Shown: one piece after another, positions 3,478-35,370 of the stretch
How positions within the stretch are numbered: the first letter of the stretch is position 1
Layout: the number at the start of each line of letters is the position of its first letter
DNA from: Minisyncoccota bacterium
GTDB lineage: Bacteria > Patescibacteriota > Minisyncoccia > Phycocordibacterales > UBA9973
Assembly (NCBI GenBank): GCA_031973235.1
Contig: DALYDM010000001.1
Location: 16,129-80,128 of the forward strand
DNA length: 64,000 nucleotides
Direction: 5' to 3'
Translations under genes and position numbers: made by a program
The notes under the pieces: model-generated
Databases searched by the model: none
What the model saw: only the letters and a program-made list of their open reading frames with translations
What the model was told of the DNA's origin: nothing

Positions 3478-4563
3478 ATGTCTAATTTTTGGAAACAACT
3501 ACCAAAACCATTTTTTGCACTTGCACCGATGGCCGATGTCACAGACGCGGCTTTTCGACAAATCATCTGTAAATATTCTCGGCATGGACAAGAGGGTGGT
3601 GGCCCGGATGTGGTGTGGACAGAGTTTGTATCTGCGGATGGGCTAGTGTCACGTGGGCGAGAAGCGCTGATGAAAGATTTGATGTTTTCAGAAAATGAGA
3701 GACCAATTGTGGTACAACTTTTTTCTTCAAAGCCAGAAAATATGAAAGAAGCATCTCGAATATGTGCCGAGCTTGGATTTGATGGAATAGATATCAATAT
3801 GGGTTGCCCAGATCGTGCCATTGAGAAACAAGGTTGCGGTTCGGCGATGATCAAGACTCCTGAAGTTGCAGTGAAAATTATTCAAGCAGCAAAAGATGGC
3901 ATTGCTCTCGCAGGAAAAGATATTCCTGTGTCAGTGAAAACTCGTATTGGATACAATACAAATGAAATAGATACGTGGATTCCACTTTTACTTAAGCAAA
4001 ATATTTCAGCACTCACGATTCACGCACGAACGAGGAAGGAGATGTCAAAAGTTCCTGCACGATGGGAACATATTAAAGAGGTAGTTGATATCAGAAATAA
4101 ACTCGGTGTTGATACGGTGATTCTAGGCAATGGTGATGTGACTGATATTGGTGACGGACTTAAGAAAGCAAAAGAATCTGGTTGTGATGGTGTGATGATT
4201 GGACGAGCACTTTTCGGGAATCCATGGCTGTTTGATAGAAATAAAAGTGTGGTATCAAAGCCATCATCGTGGCATAGATTTATAACTTGGTTGCTACCAA
4301 AAGAATTGGCCAAGAAAATCGTGGGAGACAAACGTTATACTCAAATGGATGTCCCAATTCATGAAAGACTAAATGTTCTTGTGGAGCATTCCGAGCTTTT
4401 CGAAGAACTGCTTGGTGATGTGAAGCACTTTGCGATAATGAAAAAGCATTTCAAGGCGTATGTGCATGGATTTCGTGGATCAAAAGAACTTCGAGTCAAA
4501 TTGATGGAAGAGGGGAATACTGCCAGTGCAGTAAGGGGAATTGTGGAAAATGCAAAGGTTTAG
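3478..4563 (+). CDS. dus: tRNA-dihydrouridine synthase (Dus family)
   Basis: 361 aa with APMADVTDAAFRQI, VVQLFSSKPE and DGIDINMGCP motifs and TIM-barrel Dus catalytic residues. Confidence 0.9.
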   Translation: MSNFWKQLPKPFFALAPMADVTDAAFRQIICKYSRHGQEGGGPDVVWTEFVSADGLVSRGREALMKDLMFSENERPIVVQLFSSKPENMKEASRICAELGFDGIDINMGCPDRAIEKQGCGSAMIKTPEVAVKIIQAAKDGIALAGKDIPVSVKTRIGYNTNEIDTWIPLLLKQNISALTIHARTRKEMSKVPARWEHIKEVVDIRNKLGVDTVILGNGDVTDIGDGLKKAKESGCDGVMIGRALFGNPWLFDRNKSVVSKPSSWHRFITWLLPKELAKKIVGDKRYTQMDVPIHERLNVLVEHSELFEELLGDVKHFAIMKKHFKAYVHGFRGSKELRVKLMEEGNTASAVRGIVENAKV

Positions 4564-29730: not shown

Positions 29731-29805
29731 GGCCCTATCGTCTAACGGTTAGGACATCGCCTTCTCAAGGCGGTAATCAGGGTTCGATTCCCTGTAGGGT
29801 CACCA
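29731..29805 (+). tRNA. tRNA-Glu (anticodon CTC), CCA encoded
   Basis: ggccctatcgtctaacggttaggacatcgcc-tTCTCaa-ggcggtaatcagggttcgattccctgtagggtcacca parallels bacterial tRNA-Glu (gtcccct tcgtctagagg...ccgcc cTTTCac ggcgg...). Confidence 0.8.
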
Positions 29806-29831
29806 TCTCGTGCTAGCACGAGAAGCATACA

Positions 29832-29858
29832 AAAACAGCCCACTTTGGGCTGTTTTTG
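29832..29858 (+). terminator. rho-independent terminator after tRNA-Glu
   Basis: aaaaacagccc-actt-tgggctgttttt. Confidence 0.75.
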
Positions 29859-29873
29859 TGATAAAATCTAAAT

Positions 29874-30389
29874 ATGCAAGAAAAATTTCCTGAAATAAAA
29901 AAAGAATCAGTACAACATTATAGTATTGGACAAAAGATACGCTCTGAAAATCTAGACGGTTCGTTTTGCGAATCTGAAATAGTGAATATTATAGATTCAC
30001 AAAAAGTGATTACTGTATTAGGGTATAACTATGAAATTAAGTGTCCGATACCTATACTGATATTAGACAAGAAAATATCTGGAAATCTAGCAGCCTATCA
30101 CCCCGAGTTGAATGTTATATTTGCATACAATGACACCTCGCCAGAAGTCATGCACCATGAAATTATTCACTCACTAGAAATGACTAAACAGATTCCAGAA
30201 CAGCTCAATATTTTTTATAAAAAAGTACTAGAGGTATTACCTGATAATTCAAATTTGCAGCCAAATTTTAGAAAAAACATCCACGAATTCGTTGCAGATG
30301 CTTACTCAAAAAATGGGTTAATAGAGACCTTGAAAAACAAGGGCTTATACGATGAGTTTATAAATCTCACAAGATATATATTTCAATAG
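29874..30389 (+). CDS. hypothetical protein with HExxH motif (putative zinc metallopeptidase-like)
   Basis: 171 aa; MHHEIIHSLE is the only recognisable element. It is the first gene after tRNA-Glu. Confidence 0.3.
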   Translation: MQEKFPEIKKESVQHYSIGQKIRSENLDGSFCESEIVNIIDSQKVITVLGYNYEIKCPIPILILDKKISGNLAAYHPELNVIFAYNDTSPEVMHHEIIHSLEMTKQIPEQLNIFYKKVLEVLPDNSNLQPNFRKNIHEFVADAYSKNGLIETLKNKGLYDEFINLTRYIFQ

Positions 30390-30406: not shown

Positions 30407-30482
30407 GCTCGAGAAGGGTCGTTGTGATATTATAAAAAAATATTAAATAACCTTACAGGGTAACGAATCGAAAAGTTCTATC
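30407..30482 (+). repeat. direct repeat copy A (~76 bp promoter-like element)
   Basis: gctcgagaagggtcgttgtgatattataaaaaaatattaaataaccttacagggtaacgaatcgaaaagttctatc is ~80% identical to copy B at 31755-31830. It contains a TGn-extended -10-like tgtgATATTAT. Extra ctcgagaa(c/g)g units sit at 30482 and 30510. Confidence 0.6.
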
Positions 30483-30564
30483 TCGAGAACGCTCACCTTT
30501 TAGAGAGCGCTCGAGAAGCGTTGAATAAAGTCTACGTTTGTTATGAAAATGTTATAATAAAATT

Positions 30565-31743
30565 ATGTCTGACGAAAACCCACAATCAACTACAGTAAAT
30601 CACGAACACTCGATTATTCCTTTTGAGTGGGCAATAAAGAAAGTTTTAGGACCAACTTTTGATAATCTTGGTCTTGATATTCGTGCTGGGTATGAAAAAA
30701 CAAAAGAGAAGATATTTAAATCAGCAGAAAAAAAACTTAAACCAAATCAAAATAGTGGTAAAGCAAACCTACGAATAGCTTGGGACATTGTCACGCAGGC
30801 GAGTTTTACAGAAAGTGAAATTGGAGCAGAATACTTTGGAGGAATTCTTGCTGCATCAAAAACAGAAGATGGACAAGATGATACTGGTATTTATTATTTA
30901 AACATCACAAAATCACTTTCATCAAAACAATTATATCTTCATTATCTTTTATATAAATCTTTAAATAATCTTTTTGTACGTACTGAATCACTACATAGCT
31001 TGAATGTAGGCATGGGTTCAGAAATAAGTGGTAAAAGAATTTATTTTTATACACTAGAACTTCTAGATCTTGGCGTTAACATTGATACTGATTTTACAGC
31101 TCTTTCAAATAAAGGTTTAATTGGTGATTTTTGGGAAGTAATAACAAAAAAGATAAAACACCCTCTCACAAATAAAGAAGTTGAAATTCCCTGTGCTGTA
31201 TTTACGCCTACAACCTTAGGAATTCAAATGCTCGCAATCGCACAAAATAAATTAAAAGAATATCGAGAATTTAGTAAATCAGATTTTGGTACAATCTTAG
31301 ATATAAAAATTCCTGAATTTTGTGCCTTTTCTGCCGAAGAATTGTTAAAGATTTCTATGACTTCTAATGTTCAAATAATTGAGATAGACAAACCAATCTC
31401 AGAAGTTTTTGAATTTACAATAAATCCTGATAATACTCCGAAATGGATTGAGAATATCGTAGAAGAGAAGGTAAACTCGTCTCCAATAACTGTGGGTACT
31501 GAGTATTCAAATACTAAGAACGGCATTGAATGGACTATTTACACTTGTACGAAATTTGAAAAAGATAAAAAGTTTGAACTTAAACAAAAAGACGATTTCT
31601 ATCACGTAGAGTATATTTATGAAAAAATTTCTGACACTCGAACAAAGCTAACTTATCATGAGTGGATGGAAAATGATTCTGTTCTTGTAGAGCCTTTCGA
31701 AATGAAAACGCTTGAAAGGCTTAAAAAAGTGCTTGAGGTCTAA
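30565..31743 (+). CDS. Abi-alpha (DUF4393)-like N-domain fused to an SRPBCC/AHSA1-like C-domain (candidate abortive-infection/defence protein)
   Basis: The N-terminus (KKVLGPTFDNLGLDIRAGYEKTKEKIF...LYLHYLLYKSL) resembles Abi_alpha. The C-terminus (ISEVFEFTINPDNTPKWIENIVEEKV...KLTYHEWMENDSVLVEPFEMKTLERLKKVLE) resembles the SRPBCC ligand-binding fold. Both assignments are by eye. Confidence 0.35.
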   Translation: MSDENPQSTTVNHEHSIIPFEWAIKKVLGPTFDNLGLDIRAGYEKTKEKIFKSAEKKLKPNQNSGKANLRIAWDIVTQASFTESEIGAEYFGGILAASKTEDGQDDTGIYYLNITKSLSSKQLYLHYLLYKSLNNLFVRTESLHSLNVGMGSEISGKRIYFYTLELLDLGVNIDTDFTALSNKGLIGDFWEVITKKIKHPLTNKEVEIPCAVFTPTTLGIQMLAIAQNKLKEYREFSKSDFGTILDIKIPEFCAFSAEELLKISMTSNVQIIEIDKPISEVFEFTINPDNTPKWIENIVEEKVNSSPITVGTEYSNTKNGIEWTIYTCTKFEKDKKFELKQKDDFYHVEYIYEKISDTRTKLTYHEWMENDSVLVEPFEMKTLERLKKVLEV

Positions 31744-31754
31744 AGTTTATAGAC

Positions 31755-31830
31755 GCTCGAGAAGGGTTGTGATGGTATAATAAAAAAGCCTTAAATAACC
31801 TTATGGGGTAATGAACCACGGGGTTCTATC
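31755..31830 (+). repeat. direct repeat copy B (~76 bp promoter-like element)
   Basis: gctcgagaagggttgtgatggtataataaaaaagccttaaataaccttatggggtaatgaaccacggggttctatc contains a TGG-TATAAT extended -10 and is followed by a ~300-nt ORF-free region. Confidence 0.6.
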
Positions 31831-32130
31831 ACAAAAAGGCTCACTAAGATAGAAAGTCCCACCTAAGTAGGATTTTCGAGTGCATGGTGAAGTCACAGAG
31901 ATTTTTTCCTGACTCTCGCCAAGAAAAAATGTGAGACGGGGTCGCAAGTGTTTACGCCCACAGAATATGCAATGCATATGAGTAGACTTTGTAACTTGTG
32001 ACCTCACAGAACAAGCATGCGAAGCATTCAGTAAATCAGTGAGGATAGTATTTGTGACCGATGGCGCAATAGCTTTTCTGATATACGGTCATAAGTAAAA
32101 AACCACTGGTTTATACCAGTGGCTAGATAA
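31831..32130. ncRNA. candidate structured non-coding RNA or gene remnant (ORF-free, relatively GC-enriched)
   Basis: No ORF longer than 68 aa; several internal complementary segments; preceded by promoter-like repeat B; ends at a bidirectional hairpin ccactggtttataccagtgg (32103-32122). Strand not determined. Confidence 0.3.
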
Positions 32131-32137
32131 TGTTTGT

Positions 32138-32488
32138 TTAAAATGAACTATTATCAACGCATCTTAAGTTCCTTACTAATTGTTCCAACTTACCCTTGTT
32201 GATTACTCCATTACAATACTGAACATTCAAAGTATCACCCAACTTTATTAAGTCTCTTTTGTCATCAATACGACCGATGTAAAGAATAGTTAGTTGAAAC
32301 AATTGTTTTGTCTCAGGATTATTAAATTCGTAATGTTCAAACTTGGCATCTTTTCTGTAACCAACCAAAATGGCTTTGGCGTCTTTAGGATTTCTACATT
32401 CTTTAGCCTTGTTGATTACTGAAACAAATTCTACTAGCAACGCAACACATATGATAGTTGCTACTACTACTTCTGTAACTTTTTTCAT
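32138..32488 (-). CDS. small secreted/anchored protein (hypothetical)
   Basis: 116 aa, N-terminal hydrophobic segment, Cys-containing; terminator hairpin at 32103-32122 followed by T-run on the minus strand. Confidence 0.35.
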   Translation of the reverse strand: MKKVTEVVVATIICVALLVEFVSVINKAKECRNPKDAKAILVGYRKDAKFEHYEFNNPETKQLFQLTILYIGRIDDKRDLIKLGDTLNVQYCNGVINKGKLEQLVRNLRCVDNSSF

Positions 32489-32606
32489 TTTATGTAAGTT
32501 AGTGTTTAATATAATATATCATACTAATCACAAAAGTCAAGTATCAAATTTAAATAAAATTACAAGGCAATCAAACACAAAGTTTTATCTCTAGAAGGCT
32601 CACATG

Positions 32607-33215: not shown

Positions 33216-33644
33216 ATGAAAAAACATAAATATGACCCCGCACTGGTAGAGCGAATACTTGCGGATGATGATTATGTTCTTCATTTGTTCGTAGTTCACT
33301 ACCTCAAAACACACGACAAATTATATTTGCCTAAAAGACGCAAAAATGGCGACTATACTATGAAGTGCATACTTCATAAAGAAAGAACACCATCGTTTAG
33401 ATACTCGAGTAAAAGAGGCATATTTAAATGTTTTGGGTGTGGAAGTGGAGGTAACATTCTCACTCTAATCGGGAAGTACTTTGAGCTATCATTTATAGGT
33501 AGTATTAAAAGAGCATTGCAAATGAAGAGTGTCCCTAACCACATCGAAAGTGGAAATAGTCACAAAGTCGAGACAGGTCAATTAAAAATAATTTACCCGC
33601 CACATGCTGATCCATTGAGCGGTGACTACAATCTTCCATTTTAA
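33216..33644 (+). CDS. stand-alone DnaG/phage-primase CHC2 zinc-finger domain protein (primase fragment)
   Basis: CILHKERTPSFRYSSKRGIFKCFGCGSGGNILTLIGKY is the zf-CHC2 signature. No TOPRIM or helicase domain follows; terminator 33650-33686. Confidence 0.7.
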   Translation: MKKHKYDPALVERILADDDYVLHLFVVHYLKTHDKLYLPKRRKNGDYTMKCILHKERTPSFRYSSKRGIFKCFGCGSGGNILTLIGKYFELSFIGSIKRALQMKSVPNHIESGNSHKVETGQLKIIYPPHADPLSGDYNLPF

Positions 33645-33792: not shown

Positions 33793-34626
33793 ATGTCTAT
33801 ATCTATTATCAAATCAACAGGAGAAGAGCAGTCGTTTAGTAAAAAGAAATTGTGCATGTCTCTCGAGCACGCTGGTGCACCAAAGAAGCTCGCAGATACG
33901 ATTTGTAAGCGAGTGGAAGAGCATATCAATCCTGGAGCATCCACAAGTAAGATTTATCGAGAAGCACTTCGATATTTGATCAAAGAGAATCGCGAGCTTG
34001 CAGCTCGATATAGTATTCGTCGTGGTGTAGCGGCTCTAGGTCCTGCTGGGTTTGTGTTTGAGCAATACGTCGAGGCAATCTTGCAAGCATATGGATTCAC
34101 CACAAAGAGAAATGTCATGATGAAAGGTGAATGTGTGACGCATGAAGTCGATGTGATGGCAATGAAAGACGGTGTGCATTATTTTCTTGAAATGAAATAC
34201 CACAATCAAGTGGGAATCCGTACACATATAAATACTGTGATGTATGCGTATGCTCGATTGCTTGATATTTCTGCTGGTCTTGCAAAAAAAGAAAAGGATA
34301 CACATGAACACAAAATGTGGCTTATCACAAATACCAAATTCACTGATACTTCAATCAAGTATGCAAATTGTAAAGATGTAATTTTGACCGGATGGGATTA
34401 TCCAGAAGGGAATAGTCTTGAAGATATGATTGCATACAAAAAGCTCTATCCTGTGACAGTGCTCCCTTCGATATCTGGCGCAATGCTTGAAGAACTCGCA
34501 AGAAAAAATATTATTCTCGCACAAGATTTGCTCCCATATACTCCCCACGCACTTTCGAAACTCCTTATGATAGATGAGTATCGTGCTCAGAAAATTGCTC
34601 GAGATGTGGTAATGCTTATGAAATAG
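33793..34626 (+). CDS. ATP-cone domain fused to Mrr-like (PD-(D/E)xK) restriction endonuclease domain
   Basis: N-terminal ATP-cone (IIKSTGEEQSFSKKKLCMSLEHAG...ADTICKRVEEHI...ASTSKIYREALRYLIKENRELAARY). C-terminal Mrr_cat-like core (FEQYVEAILQAYGF...HEVDVMAMKDGVHYFLEMKYH, with D...E.K). Confidence 0.65.
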   Translation: MSISIIKSTGEEQSFSKKKLCMSLEHAGAPKKLADTICKRVEEHINPGASTSKIYREALRYLIKENRELAARYSIRRGVAALGPAGFVFEQYVEAILQAYGFTTKRNVMMKGECVTHEVDVMAMKDGVHYFLEMKYHNQVGIRTHINTVMYAYARLLDISAGLAKKEKDTHEHKMWLITNTKFTDTSIKYANCKDVILTGWDYPEGNSLEDMIAYKKLYPVTVLPSISGAMLEELARKNIILAQDLLPYTPHALSKLLMIDEYRAQKIARDVVMLMK

Positions 34627-35278: not shown

Positions 35279-35370
35279 TTATTGAATCCCCGCGTAACAT
35301 GCGGGGATTTTGTTTGACTCATTCTTAAAATGTGTTATTATGTATACAAACGTTCAAAATAAAGAAAAAA

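What the first reader, a model, noticed from the sequence alone, without database searches (positions are those of the whole stretch)
30407..31830. Abi-alpha-like/SRPBCC fusion gene bracketed by ~76-bp direct repeats carrying extended -10 promoters
The 392-aa ORF appears to join an Abi-alpha (DUF4393)-like N-domain to a small-molecule-binding SRPBCC-like C-domain, a combination I have not seen described. The gene is flanked by two ~80% identical copies of a promoter-containing element (TGn-ATATTAT / TGG-TATAAT). These look like recombination or cassette-shuffling boundaries, or a duplicated regulatory leader. Extra ctcgagaa(c/g)g units in the upstream copy may be a regulator-binding iteration.
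Basis: partly seen in the sequence, partly recalled or inferred. Interest (0 to 1): 0.6.

Follow-up and report, generated by a model that had tools for sequence, protein, structure and literature searches.

The report
Mobile defence-gene cassette at tRNA-Glu
A probable anti-phage gene sits as one unit in a row of small mobile gene cassettes next to a tRNA gene, and the repeats on either side of it belong to a widespread 91-base boundary element of Patescibacteria that I could not find described.

Summary
ORF 30565-31743 (392 aa) is real. It is flanked by two 90-nt direct repeats (30407-30496 and 31755-31844, 77% identical), and a partial third copy lies at 32552-32603.

The repeats are not a local duplication. 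They belong to a 91-nt family ("W") with 99 distinct full-length copies in about 90 metagenomic contigs. Copies lie in same-orientation arrays about 0.9 kb apart, separating one- or two-gene accessory or defence cassettes. A tRNA-Glu lies upstream on the same strand in every locus that has one (17 of 17). A large serine recombinase sits in a fixed position in 11 loci.

The same Abi cassette occurs in three genomes, each time inserted directly after a different ...TCAC(C) end: two tRNA-Glu genes and, in the window, W1.

W carries a conserved core, C(T/A)CGAGAAGG, at both of its ends, and a third copy lies in a ~22-nt trailer after W. W also carries an extended -10 signature and a tRNA-like 3' end.

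Best reading: W plus the trailer are the attachment-site ends of small integrative elements that accrete at tRNA-Glu. The mechanism is inferred, not shown. No Rfam family or paper matched.

The parts
29731..29805 (+). tRNA-Glu(CTC), the anchor of the array. Its 3' end is ...GTAGGGTCACCA.
   Evidence: ARAGORN and Rfam. In all 17 related loci that carry a tRNA-Glu, it lies upstream of W on the same strand.
29806..29828 (+). 'Trailer' TCTCGTGCTAGCACGAGAAGCAT, directly after the tRNA. It contains the core GCACGAGAAG and is the proposed left end (P' arm) of an integrated element. A bidirectional terminator follows at 29829-29859.
   Evidence: Sequence. The same trailer type follows about 12 of 19 distinct tRNA-Glu genes, one tRNA-Arg that also ends in GGGGTCACC, and about a third of W copies. 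It never follows other tRNAs.
29874..30389 (+). 171-aa ORF of unknown function: the first cassette of the array.
   Evidence: ORF list. No Pfam, PADLOC or PHROGs family. Not homologous to the neighbours of the Abi gene in other genomes.
30407..30496 (+). W1, a full-length copy of the 91-nt W element. Core1 GCTCGAGAAGGGTC is at 30407-30420, the extended -10 TGATATTAT at 30425-30433, core2 CTCGAGAACGCTC at 30482-30494, and the tRNA-like end GCTCAC(C) at 30491-30497.
   Evidence: E = 1e-21. It starts 17 nt after the stop of the 171-aa ORF. Its nearest relatives are copies in other contigs, at 86%.
30497..30521 (+). Trailer CTTTTAGAGAGCGCTCGAGAAGCGT with the core GCTCGAGAAG at 30509-30518: the left end of the Abi cassette.
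   Evidence: The sequence shared with L001/L010 starts at 30493. There the identical trailer follows a genuine tRNA-Glu(TTC).
30550..30558 (+). The gene's own extended -10 box, TGTTATAAT, 6 nt before the ATG. The mRNA is therefore probably leaderless.
   Evidence: Sequence. The same arrangement is conserved upstream of homologs in L001, L004, L007 and L011.
30565..31743 (+). 392-aa gene. Residues ~20-262 form an Abi-alpha-like domain and residues ~265-392 an SRPBCC (helix-grip) domain.
31755..31844 (+). W2, a full-length W copy 11 nt after the stop codon. Core1 is at 31755-31768 and the extended -10 TGGTATAAT at 31773-31781. Core2 is degenerate (CACAAAAAGGCTC), and the copy ends in GCTCAC.
   Evidence: E = 7e-19. 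Homology with L001/L010 and L004 ends inside its first 10-30 nt.
31845..32100 (+). 'Y', a conserved structured non-coding stretch after W2 that carries GTGACC motifs. A bidirectional terminator follows at 32101-32124.
   Evidence: RNA fold z = -3.77, with 0 of 200 shuffles as stable. nhmmer similarity to L018 1791-1961, L099 and L046, always after a tRNA-Glu or a W. No Rfam hit. Terminator.
32138..32488 (-). 116-aa ORF of unknown function: a cassette gene in the opposite orientation.
   Evidence: No significant family hit. In arrays, 11 of 56 cassette genes are on the opposite strand.
32552..32603 (+). W3, a partial W copy (model positions 40-91) in the same orientation. It ends in ...GTTTTATCTCTAGAAGGCTCAC.
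   Evidence: nhmmer E = 4e-6; sequence.

Best explanation
The window holds a short array of small integrated gene cassettes anchored at the 3' end of tRNA-Glu in a Patescibacteria (CPR) genome. The 392-aa gene is one cassette.

Each cassette starts with a ~22-nt 'trailer' (...GCTAG-CWCGAGAAG-CRT) and ends with a 91-nt W element. W consists of core1 C(T/A)CGAGAAGGGTC, an outward-facing extended -10 promoter, about 45 conserved nt, core2 CTCGAGAAGGCTC, and a tRNA-like end, CAC(C).

Joined together, W plus trailer would form the attachment site (attP) of a circular element. Integration occurs immediately 3' of a ...GGTCAC(C) end, which can be a tRNA-Glu or the tRNA-mimicking end of a W already in place. 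Cassettes therefore pile up in one orientation.

The likely catalyst is a large serine recombinase. It is absent from the window but is found in a fixed position in 11 related loci, so here it would act in trans.

The cargo protein is most likely an abortive-infection-type anti-phage effector (Abi-alpha-like domain) fused to a small-molecule-binding SRPBCC sensor domain.

Shown: the anatomy, the family, the arrays, the insertion points and the domain folds. Inferred: the recombination chemistry, the recombinase assignment, promoter activity and the defence function.
For: 1. Family. A 3' motif scan found 87 metagenomic stretches. About 75 of 81 unique hits also carry the 5' core about 60 nt upstream, which was not part of the query. 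HMM searches give 138 hits in 92 sources, of which 99 are distinct full-length copies.

2. Arrays. 33 loci have more than one copy and none has mixed orientation. Median spacing is 925 nt. Copies are intergenic and separate one- or two-gene units, with 45 genes on the same strand and 11 on the opposite strand. W starts a median of 24 nt after the preceding stop codon.

3. Anchor. tRNA-Glu lies upstream on the same strand in 17 of 17 loci. The trailer follows only ends of the type ...GGTCAC(C): about 12 of 19 tRNA-Glu genes, one tRNA-Arg, and W copies.

4. One cassette, three insertion points. Window GCTCACC|TTTTAGAG... (after W1), L001/L010 GGTCACC|TTTTAGAG... (after tRNA-Glu TTC) and L004 AGTCAC|TATTAT... 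(after tRNA-Glu CTC). The flanking genes are unrelated. The shared DNA is only 30493-31785 and 30538-31765.

5. Homology breakpoints between loci fall within 30 nt of a W in 31% of cases, against 3% at random. L075 and L095 share flanks at 96% identity but differ by a ~3.9-kb block of cassettes, and the distal junction lies exactly at GGGGTCAC. In L018 an insert after tRNA-Glu is bounded by an exact 12-nt repeat of the tRNA 3' end.

6. W copies within one array are no more alike (72%) than copies in different loci (68%), and the two subtypes are mixed within arrays. Copies therefore arrive independently.

7. Closely related large serine recombinases (Resolvase + Recombinase + Zn_ribbon_recom) occur in 11 W loci. 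In all 11 the gene lies upstream of W on the opposite strand, and between tRNA-Glu and W wherever the tRNA is visible. One also sits next to the 64%-identical fusion homolog in L007.

8. The L004 stub GACGAGAAGGCTCAC equals a W collapsed between core1 and core2.

9. Cargo is accessory or defence-like: methyltransferases, GNAT, HD, APH, Ser/Thr kinase, mad2/3/6, PD-T7-1/5, PDC-M34, and another Abi-alpha homolog.

10. Protein evidence. Abi-alpha is a proven abortive-infection gene (PMC6356687). Homologs lie in defence islands or next to Mrr-type nucleases.
Against: No recombinase is encoded in the window, so any mobility here needs a trans-acting enzyme.

No excised circle or empty/filled pair at single-cassette resolution was observed.

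The W after the Abi gene differs strongly between the window and L001 (about 62% identity beyond the first 30 nt) although the gene is 88% identical. The simple rule 'each cassette keeps its own W' therefore needs extra exchange within W.

Known large serine recombinases use ~50-bp sites with a 2-bp crossover. They do not normally create long repeats or need three iterated motifs.

The similarity of the W 3' end to the tRNA 3' end is modest and not Glu-specific: 13.5 of 22 positions, against 5-14 for other tRNAs. It was not significant in a local-alignment test.

The very high conservation of core1 and of the promoter pattern suggests an additional regulatory or RNA role.

The family was ascertained through its 3' motif, so conservation there is inflated.

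Confidence: 0.55

Rival explanations
1. W is primarily a small RNA gene or tRNA-like module with its own extended -10 promoter, a ~55-nt conserved transcript ending in a tRNA-like ...CUCACC(A), and a downstream terminator. Arrays arise because such modules, like tRNA genes, serve as integration targets. This reading is partly compatible with the best explanation.
For: The TGnTAnnnT signature is present in register. 'W-trailer-terminator' parallels 'tRNA-Glu-trailer-terminator', and many W copies are followed directly by intrinsic terminators. The consensus 3' half can form a hairpin: 81% of cells pair, against 30-53% in slid controls. Mean MFE z is -1.25 on the + strand and -0.67 on the - strand. 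Pair 83-90 switches C-G to U-A.
Against: RNAalifold finds no consensus pairs in 77 sequences. Covariation is no better than column shuffles (128 of 500). The mutual-information signal is explained by two subfamilies. There is no Rfam hit, including the tRNA model at E <= 10. Core1, the best-conserved block, lies upstream of the putative start site. The tight coupling to the preceding stop codon and the breakpoint data are not explained by this reading.
Confidence: 0.2
2. W is the attC-like site of an integron-type gene-capture platform, with an as yet unseen integrase acting on folded single strands.
For: Same-orientation arrays of mostly single-ORF cassettes of about 0.9 kb. The repeat sits directly after the stop codon. 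The cargo is diverse and accessory (GNAT, methyltransferases, DUFs). Repeats within an array are heterogeneous, as in mobile integrons.
Against: There is no palindromic hairpin organisation and no R''/R' boxes (RYYYAAC/GTTRRRY) in W. phmmer found no tyrosine recombinase in any of about 90 loci or in the window. The arrays start at a tRNA gene, not at intI/attI. The Abi cassette has its own promoter.
Confidence: 0.08
3. W is a non-autonomous selfish repeat (MITE-like) or a regulatory box of a regulon: a shared promoter/operator bound by one regulator through the CWCGAGAAG motif. On this reading it happens to sit between accessory genes and plays no part in their mobility.
For: The 10-nt motif is iterated three times per unit, and one copy overlaps the promoter region. 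The L004 stub resembles an empty site, or a W deleted between its terminal direct repeats.
Against: There are no terminal inverted repeats and no variable target-site duplications. Orientation is strictly uniform relative to tRNA-Glu, even where cassette genes are on the other strand. W sits at the 3' end of genes rather than at a fixed distance upstream of starts: 24 nt after the stop against about 100 nt before the next start, the latter variable. Breakpoints cluster at W.
Confidence: 0.12
4. The two copies are a local duplication of a regulatory leader or promoter in this genome.
For: Two copies 1348 nt apart, both carrying promoter-like boxes.
Against: W1 is 86% identical to copies in unrelated contigs (L072, L044) but only 77% identical to W2. 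Ninety-nine distinct copies exist elsewhere. In L001/L004 a genuine tRNA-Glu occupies the position of W1.
Confidence: 0.03

Closest known systems
Abi-alpha (EF2833, Pfam PF14337/DUF4393) of Enterococcus faecalis V583 prophage 6
   Same: The N-domain is about 260 aa, the size of the single-domain protein. It belongs to a family of which 42 of 66 sampled members hit PF14337. It is carried on mobile or defence-island DNA.
   Different: The query itself does not reach any PF14337, PADLOC or PHROGs threshold. It carries an extra C-terminal SRPBCC domain. The host is a CPR bacterium, not a Firmicute. No phenotype is known. The mechanism of Abi-alpha itself is unknown; it causes premature lysis (PMC6356687).
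SRPBCC / Bet v 1 / START superfamily (e.g. SMU.440 3ijt, AHSA1-like proteins, polyketide ARO/CYC, PYR/PYL receptors)
   Different: It is fused to an Abi-alpha-like domain. Among the 150 best hits of the exhaustive search, only the fusion's own cluster representative spans both domains. The ligand is unknown and the pocket was not analysed.
Genomic islands and integrative elements at tRNA genes, including tandem accretion of integrative and cis-mobilisable elements (from my own knowledge of the ICE/CIME and tRNA-island literature)
   Same: Insertion directly at the 3' end of a tRNA gene. Repeats at the element boundaries resemble the tRNA 3' end. Several elements are stacked in one orientation. 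The integrase sits at the tRNA-proximal end in autonomous members. Content varies between related strains.
   Different: The units are tiny, usually one gene of about 0.9 kb. The boundary module is a conserved 91-nt element with an internal promoter and three iterated 10-nt motifs, not a simple copy of the tRNA end. The associated recombinase is a large serine recombinase, not the usual tyrosine integrase. The hosts are Patescibacteria.
Integron cassette arrays and attC sites (e.g. Vibrio cholerae repeats)
   Same: The picture is historically similar: genes flanked by ~100-nt imperfect direct repeats that turn out to be cassette boundaries. Same-orientation arrays with diverse accessory cargo.
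   Different: There is no hairpin-forming palindromic attC architecture, no IntI and no attI/Pc platform. The anchor is a tRNA gene.
Large serine recombinase (phage-type integrase) systems such as phiC31 and Bxb1 (from my own knowledge)
   Same: Domain architecture Resolvase + Recombinase + Zn_ribbon_recom, about 430 aa, placed at one end of the inserted DNA.
   Different: The target is next to a tRNA 3' end. The candidate site is much longer and more repetitive than classical ~50-bp attP/attB sites. The assignment is by association only.

Membership tests
Abi_alpha (PF14337) | Match to the family HMM at or above its threshold | tested here: not met
   The query has no PF14337 hit at E <= 1. 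Transitive support only: 42 of 66 homologs hit at E <= 0.01, best 3.5e-7.
Abi_alpha (PF14337) | Single domain of about 210-280 aa, encoded on prophages or defence islands | tested here: met
   The N-domain is about 260 aa, and most relatives are stand-alone proteins of 250-270 aa. Contexts include Mrr, MORC-like ATPase, GmrSD, a methylase and a serine recombinase.
Abi_alpha (PF14337) | Abortive-infection phenotype (premature lysis on phage infection) | not testable with these tools
   Known only for EF2833 (PMC6356687).
SRPBCC (Polyketide_cyc2 PF10604 and relatives) | HMM match above the curated cut-off | tested here: not met
   21.3 bits against a cut-off of 27.4, E = 3.4e-4. All 6 fusion homologs hit at E <= 0.01, best 6.4e-7.
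SRPBCC (Polyketide_cyc2 PF10604 and relatives) | Helix-grip fold: antiparallel sheet wrapped around a long C-terminal helix | tested here: met
Integron (attC / IntI) | attC: an imperfect palindrome with R''/L''-L'/R' boxes that folds as a hairpin | tested here: not met
   RNAalifold gives 0 pairs on 77 copies. No RYYYAAC/GTTRRRY ends appear in the column profile.
Integron (attC / IntI) | An adjacent tyrosine integron-integrase | tested here: not met
This is a weak test.
Integron (attC / IntI) | Same-orientation array of short, mostly single-ORF cassettes | tested here: met
tRNA-targeting integrative elements (tandem accretion) | Insertion at the 3' end of a specific tRNA gene, with the tRNA intact | tested here: met
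   17 of 17 loci have tRNA-Glu upstream on the same strand. The cassette starts right after ...GGTCAC(C) in L001, L004 and other loci.
tRNA-targeting integrative elements (tandem accretion) | The distal boundary carries a direct repeat of the tRNA 3' end | tested here: inconclusive
   There is an exact 12-nt repeat in L018 and a GGGGTCAC junction in L075/L095. The W 3' end matches the tRNA-Glu 3' end at only 13.5 of 22 positions, which is not Glu-specific. The window has no exact distal repeat.
tRNA-targeting integrative elements (tandem accretion) | An integrase gene at one end of the element | tested here: inconclusive
   A large serine recombinase sits in the expected place in 11 related loci and in L007. 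None is present in the window.
Structured non-coding RNA (any Rfam family, including tRNA) | Covariance-model match or covariation-supported structure | tested here: not met
   No Rfam hit for W at E <= 10. The covariation test is equal to shuffles.
Sigma-70 extended -10 promoter | TGnTAnnnT conserved at the key positions only | tested here: met
   T20 78%, G21 74%, T23 85%, A24 74%, T28 81%, with positions 25-27 variable. The full pattern is in register in 52 of 99 copies against 3.4% background. Activity was not tested.

The most novel reading that the evidence does not exclude
W arrays are a distinct, integron-like gene-capture and expression platform of Patescibacteria. Single-gene cassettes, each ending in a 91-nt attachment module that mimics a tRNA 3' end and carries its own promoter, are captured one after another next to tRNA-Glu. 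A large serine recombinase acts in trans, and cassettes are exchanged between genomes. This would give these tiny-genome symbionts a compact, swappable pool of defence and accessory genes.
Probability: 0.3. Interest if true: 0.8.

Novelty: new variant of a known kind. Interest (0 to 1): 0.62.

Why it matters
Patescibacteria (CPR) have very small genomes, and little is known about how they acquire and exchange accessory and anti-phage genes.

A conserved, easily recognised 91-nt boundary element would be a practical handle. It marks one-gene cassettes stacked at tRNA-Glu in about 90 independent contigs. It could be used to find the variable gene pool of these organisms in metagenomes, much as attC sites are used for integrons. 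It would also point to a candidate serine-recombinase system with a defined, testable pair of sites.

The cargo examined here joins a poorly understood abortive-infection domain to a ligand-binding SRPBCC domain. That suggests a sensor-effector layout which could help to work out how Abi-alpha proteins are triggered.

Tried and rejected
1. W as a decayed tRNA. Smith-Waterman against tRNA-Glu was not better than shuffles. The Rfam tRNA model gave no hit at E <= 10. Fixed-register identity is modest and not Glu-specific. I kept only the weaker description 'tRNA-like 3' end'.

2. W as a structured RNA. A 3-sequence alifold was weak. The 77-sequence alifold gave 0 pairs. MI/APC found only subfamily linkage. 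An explicit hairpin test equalled the shuffles.

3. Known RNA families. There were none for W or for the downstream Y stretch.

4. Viral contigs. The W motif was absent.

5. Split-gene idea. The 131-aa ORF after the N-only homolog in L015 is not related to the C-domain.

6. Direct family hits for the query in PADLOC and PHROGs: none. A profile search of PDB sequences also found none.

8. Literature. No paper contains the motif, and none covers integron/attC in Patescibacteria beyond resistome surveys.

9. A distal exact repeat of the tRNA end in the window: none.

10. W next to more distant N-only homologs: none in L105-L107.

11. Organism names by exact look-up: none. Taxonomy was inferred from LysRS relatives instead.
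Full report
**Observation**

The ORF at 30565-31743 (+) encodes 392 aa. The repeat finder reports a 90-nt direct repeat, 30407-30496 vs 31755-31844, at 77% ungapped identity. A 25-nt degenerate core of the repeat occurs exactly twice in the 64-kb window, against none in 100 shuffles. Each copy contains an extended -10-like box: TGATATTAT at 30425-30433 and TGGTATAAT at 31773-31781. CTCGAGAA occurs four times between 30408 and 31763.

A tRNA-Glu(CTC) lies just upstream at 29731-29805. GC content falls from about 0.38 to 0.31-0.34 between 30 and 33 kb. The repeat is a little longer than reported, and a partial third copy in the same orientation lies at 32552-32603.

**The protein**

Pfam gives the query only a sub-threshold SRPBCC hit: PF10604, residues 272-384, E = 3.4e-4, 21.3 bits against a cut-off of 27.4. 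It gives no Abi_alpha hit. PADLOC and PHROGs give nothing for the query.

Of 123 homolog clusters, nearly all are proteins of 250-270 aa that cover only the N-terminal two-thirds of the query. Six are full length (P0001-P0005, P0007). When 66 aligned homologs were scanned individually, 42 hit PF14337 (Abi_alpha, best 3.5e-7), and all six full-length proteins hit PF10604 (best 6.4e-7).

An exhaustive HMMER search of 1.84 billion representatives finds 1292 relatives. Among the 150 best, only the fusion's own cluster representative spans both domains. The C-domain alone is 40-52% identical to many stand-alone proteins of about 130 aa, one of which lies in an ordinary chromosomal context.

Abi-alpha (EF2833) is an experimentally shown abortive-infection protein of unknown mechanism (PMC6356687). 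N-only homologs lie beside Mrr nucleases, a MORC-like ATPase, and GmrSD plus a methylase. The 46%-identical fusion homolog lies directly after an Mrr_cat protein on a Rep-bearing contig. The 64%-identical homolog lies near a large serine recombinase.

The domain reading is therefore right in substance. The Abi-alpha assignment is transitive, and the defence role is inferred.

**The gene is mobile**

Proteins 93%, 90%, 81% and 64% identical to the query sit among entirely different neighbours: FtsZ/TrxB, GDSL lipase/DnaK, MFS/EamA, and a recombinase.

The only DNA the window shares with L001/L010 is 30493-31785, and with L004 it is 30538-31765. No neighbouring protein is homologous. In L001/L010 and in L004 the gene is immediately preceded by a genuine tRNA-Glu (TTC and CTC respectively), at the place where the window has repeat copy 1.

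The junctions read GGTCACC|TTTTAGAGAGCGCTCGAGAAGC (L001), AGTCAC|TATTATATGCTGACACGGGAAGTG (L004) and GCTCACC|TTTTAGAGAGCGCTCGAGAAGC (window, after W1). One cassette therefore sits directly after three different ...TCAC(C) ends.

**The repeat is a widespread family**

A local HMM built from three copies found a second copy in L001 and the third copy in the window. One scan of the metagenome collection with the 3' motif GTTYTATCTNNNGAASGCTCAC returned 87 stretches. About 75 of 81 unique hits also carry the 5' block GC(T/A)CGAGAAGGGTC about 60 nt upstream, which was not part of the query, so they are homologous copies and not chance matches.

An HMM built from 77 copies gives 138 hits in 92 sources, of which 99 are distinct full-length copies. 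I call the element W.

The column profile shows the following blocks:
- Core1, C(T/A)CGAGAAGGGT, at 92% conservation or more.
- T20 G21. T23 A24... T28 at 74-85%, with the intervening positions free. This is the signature of an extended -10 promoter. It is present in register in 52 of 99 copies, against 3.4% of random 30-nt windows.
- An A-rich variable stretch.
- CCTTAYRGGGYAAYGAA.
- A short possible hairpin, GAAYC-N4-5-GGTTC.
- TAT, then core2 CTCGAGAAGGCTC, then AC.

Two subtypes exist: 3' TCTCGAGAAGGCTCAC and 3' TCTGCTGAACGCTCAC.

LysRS relatives place the window's organism in the Patescibacteria, near Candidatus Pacebacteria. Rfam has no family matching W. Full-text searches found neither the motif nor any description of such arrays.

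**Architecture**

Thirty-three loci carry two to five copies, never in mixed orientation. Median spacing is 925 nt. Copies are intergenic and separate one or two genes, with 45 genes on the W strand and 11 on the other strand. W begins a median of 24 nt after the preceding stop codon, and half of all copies begin within 0-19 nt. The distance from W to the next start codon is longer and more variable, at about 100 nt.

In all 17 loci where a tRNA-Glu is visible, it lies upstream of W on the same strand.

About a third of W copies are followed by a 'trailer' of the form C(A/T)N4-6 G(T/A)GCTAG-C(A/T)CGAG(A/T)AG-C(A/G)T. Most of the others are followed by an intrinsic terminator. The same trailer follows about 12 of 19 distinct tRNA-Glu genes, including the window's (29806-29828), and one tRNA-Arg whose 3' end is also GGGGTCACC. 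It follows no other tRNA.

The cargo proteins are diverse accessory or defence-type functions: methyltransferases, GNAT, HD, APH, MsrAB, a Ser/Thr kinase, mad2/3/6, PD-T7-1/5, PDC-M34, DUF4238, and one N-only Abi-alpha homolog.

**Evidence that W marks recombination boundaries**

- Internal homology breakpoints between loci fall within 30 nt of a W in 31% of cases, against 3% for random positions.
- A cassette (orf190 plus its W) is shared by L089, where it lies between two W copies, and L018, where it lies after tRNA-Glu.
- L075 and L095 share flanks at 96% identity but differ by a ~3.9-kb block of three cassettes. Homology resumes exactly at GGGGTCAC.
- In L018 a ~210-nt insert after tRNA-Glu is bounded by an exact 12-nt repeat of the tRNA 3' end, followed by a trailer.
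- L004 has, in place of W, the stub GACGAGAAGGCTCAC. This is what a W would look like after deletion between core1 and core2.
- Copies in one array are barely more alike (72%) than copies in different loci (68%). W1 is 86% identical to copies in L072 and L044 but only 77% identical to W2. Arrays mix the two subtypes. This excludes a local duplication and indicates independent arrival.

**Candidate recombinase**

Among the genes flanking the arrays, one recurrent family is a large serine recombinase (Resolvase + Recombinase + Zn_ribbon_recom, about 430 aa). Close relatives occur in 11 distinct W loci, and another sits in L007 next to the 64% fusion homolog. In all 11 loci the gene lies upstream of W on the opposite strand. 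Where the tRNA is visible (L069, L079, L046), it lies between tRNA-Glu and W.

The window itself encodes no recombinase. Its island also holds a truncated DnaG zinc-ribbon ORF and an ATP-cone/Mrr_cat protein.

**Model**

W plus trailer would be the joined ends (attP) of small integrative elements. The trailer is the left end and W is the right end. Integration takes place immediately 3' of a ...GGTCAC(C) end, either a tRNA-Glu or the mimicking end of a resident W. Elements therefore accrete in one orientation.

In the window the order is:
- tRNA-Glu
- trailer, terminator, 171-aa ORF, W1
- trailer, promoter, Abi-SRPBCC gene, W2
- Y, terminator, 116-aa ORF on the minus strand, partial W3

The three iterated CWCGAGAAG motifs are candidate protein-binding sites. 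The internal promoter would read outward across the junction.

What is shown is the anatomy, the family, the array rules, the insertion points and the association with the recombinase. What is inferred is the chemistry and the enzyme.

**Points against the model**

- There is no integrase in the window.
- No circular junction was seen.
- The W after the Abi gene differs between the window and L001 (about 62% identity) far more than the gene does (88%), so exchange within W must also occur.
- Classical serine-integrase sites are short and leave no long repeats.
- The resemblance of the W 3' end to tRNA-Glu is modest and not specific.

**RNA alternative**

The promoter signature, the parallel between 'tRNA-trailer-terminator' and 'W-trailer-terminator', a consensus hairpin (81% of cells paired, against 30-53% when slid) and a mean fold z of -1.25 all keep open the idea that W is also a small transcribed module.

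However, RNAalifold finds no consensus pairs. Covariation equals the shuffle control (128 of 500). The strongest mutual information reflects the two subtypes. I rate this as a partly compatible rival.

**Comparison and novelty**

The closest known kinds are tRNA-targeted genomic islands with tandem accretion, and integron cassette arrays. W fails the attC and IntI features. It meets the positional features of tRNA-island accretion. It differs from both in several ways:
- the unit is very small,
- the boundary module is conserved, promoter-bearing and motif-iterated,
- the associated recombinase is of the serine type,
- the host is a Patescibacterium.

I therefore class it as a new variant of a known kind. 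The protein fusion itself is a rare new domain combination of two known families.

Noticed in passing
window 31845-32100 (+); also L018 1791-1961, L099 743-630 (-), L046 172-53 (-): A conserved non-coding 'Y' stretch follows W2, and in relatives it follows a tRNA-Glu or a W. It folds much better than shuffles (z = -3.77) and carries GTGACC...GGTCAC inverted motifs. Relatives carry a conserved hairpin, GCGAGCAAACTGCTTTGCTCGC. In L018 it is bounded by an exact 12-nt repeat of the tRNA-Glu 3' end. No Rfam family matches. It may be a second undescribed RNA or att-associated element.
   Followed up: partly
window 30550-30567; L001 ~3985-4003; L004 ~3985-4003; L007, L011 upstream regions: The Abi gene starts 6-7 nt after an extended -10 box (TGTTATAAT) with no room for a Shine-Dalgarno sequence. 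The same arrangement is seen in four other loci, which suggests a leaderless mRNA.
   Followed up: partly
L044 (tRNA-Arg GCG, W-oriented 1236-1309): A tRNA-Arg whose 3' end is GGGGTCACC, like tRNA-Glu, is also followed by the trailer TTTTAGAGAGTTAATTCGAGCACTCGAGAAGCGT. This suggests that the target is the ...GGTCACC end rather than tRNA-Glu as such.
   Followed up: partly
L095 4180-4458 (-) and L051 388-666 (-): Three W copies lie in direct tandem with no gene between them (82-106 nt start to start, partly overlapping). They look like empty docking sites or collapsed cassettes.
   Followed up: no
L004 5185-5200: Downstream of the 90%-identical Abi gene, W is replaced by the 15-nt stub GACGAGAAGGCTCAC. 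This equals core1 joined to the last 5 nt of W, as if the body had been deleted between the two core repeats.
   Followed up: partly
L015 627-1424 (P0006), L108 2501-2896 (P0288): An 86%-identical N-only version (265 aa) of the protein exists, so the SRPBCC domain was gained or lost recently. It lies after a Ser_hydrolase gene. A stand-alone SRPBCC 52% identical to the C-domain also lies two genes after a Ser_hydrolase gene, which hints at where the fusion may have arisen.
   Followed up: partly
L008 2213-4607 / L009: The 46%-identical fusion homolog follows a 393-aa Mrr_cat protein by only 19 nt, on a contig that also encodes a Rep protein. This may be a two-gene defence module on a plasmid or virus.
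   Followed up: no
window 33216-33644 and 33793-34626: Two ORFs lie just beyond the W array. One is a 142-aa ORF consisting only of a DnaG-type CHC2 zinc ribbon (a phage-primase-like fragment). The other is an ATP-cone + Mrr_cat + AF1548-like_C protein. They are consistent with remnants of a mobile element or defence island. The housekeeping sigma-70 gene follows at 35332.
   Followed up: partly
L038, L064, L079, L024, L019 flanks of W arrays: Other recurrent neighbours of W arrays are an S24 LexA/CI-like repressor, a ParB-like N6/N4 DNA methylase, an SMODS nucleotidyltransferase, DUF4268 and NOV_C proteins. This is the gene content of a prophage or integrative element.
   Followed up: partly
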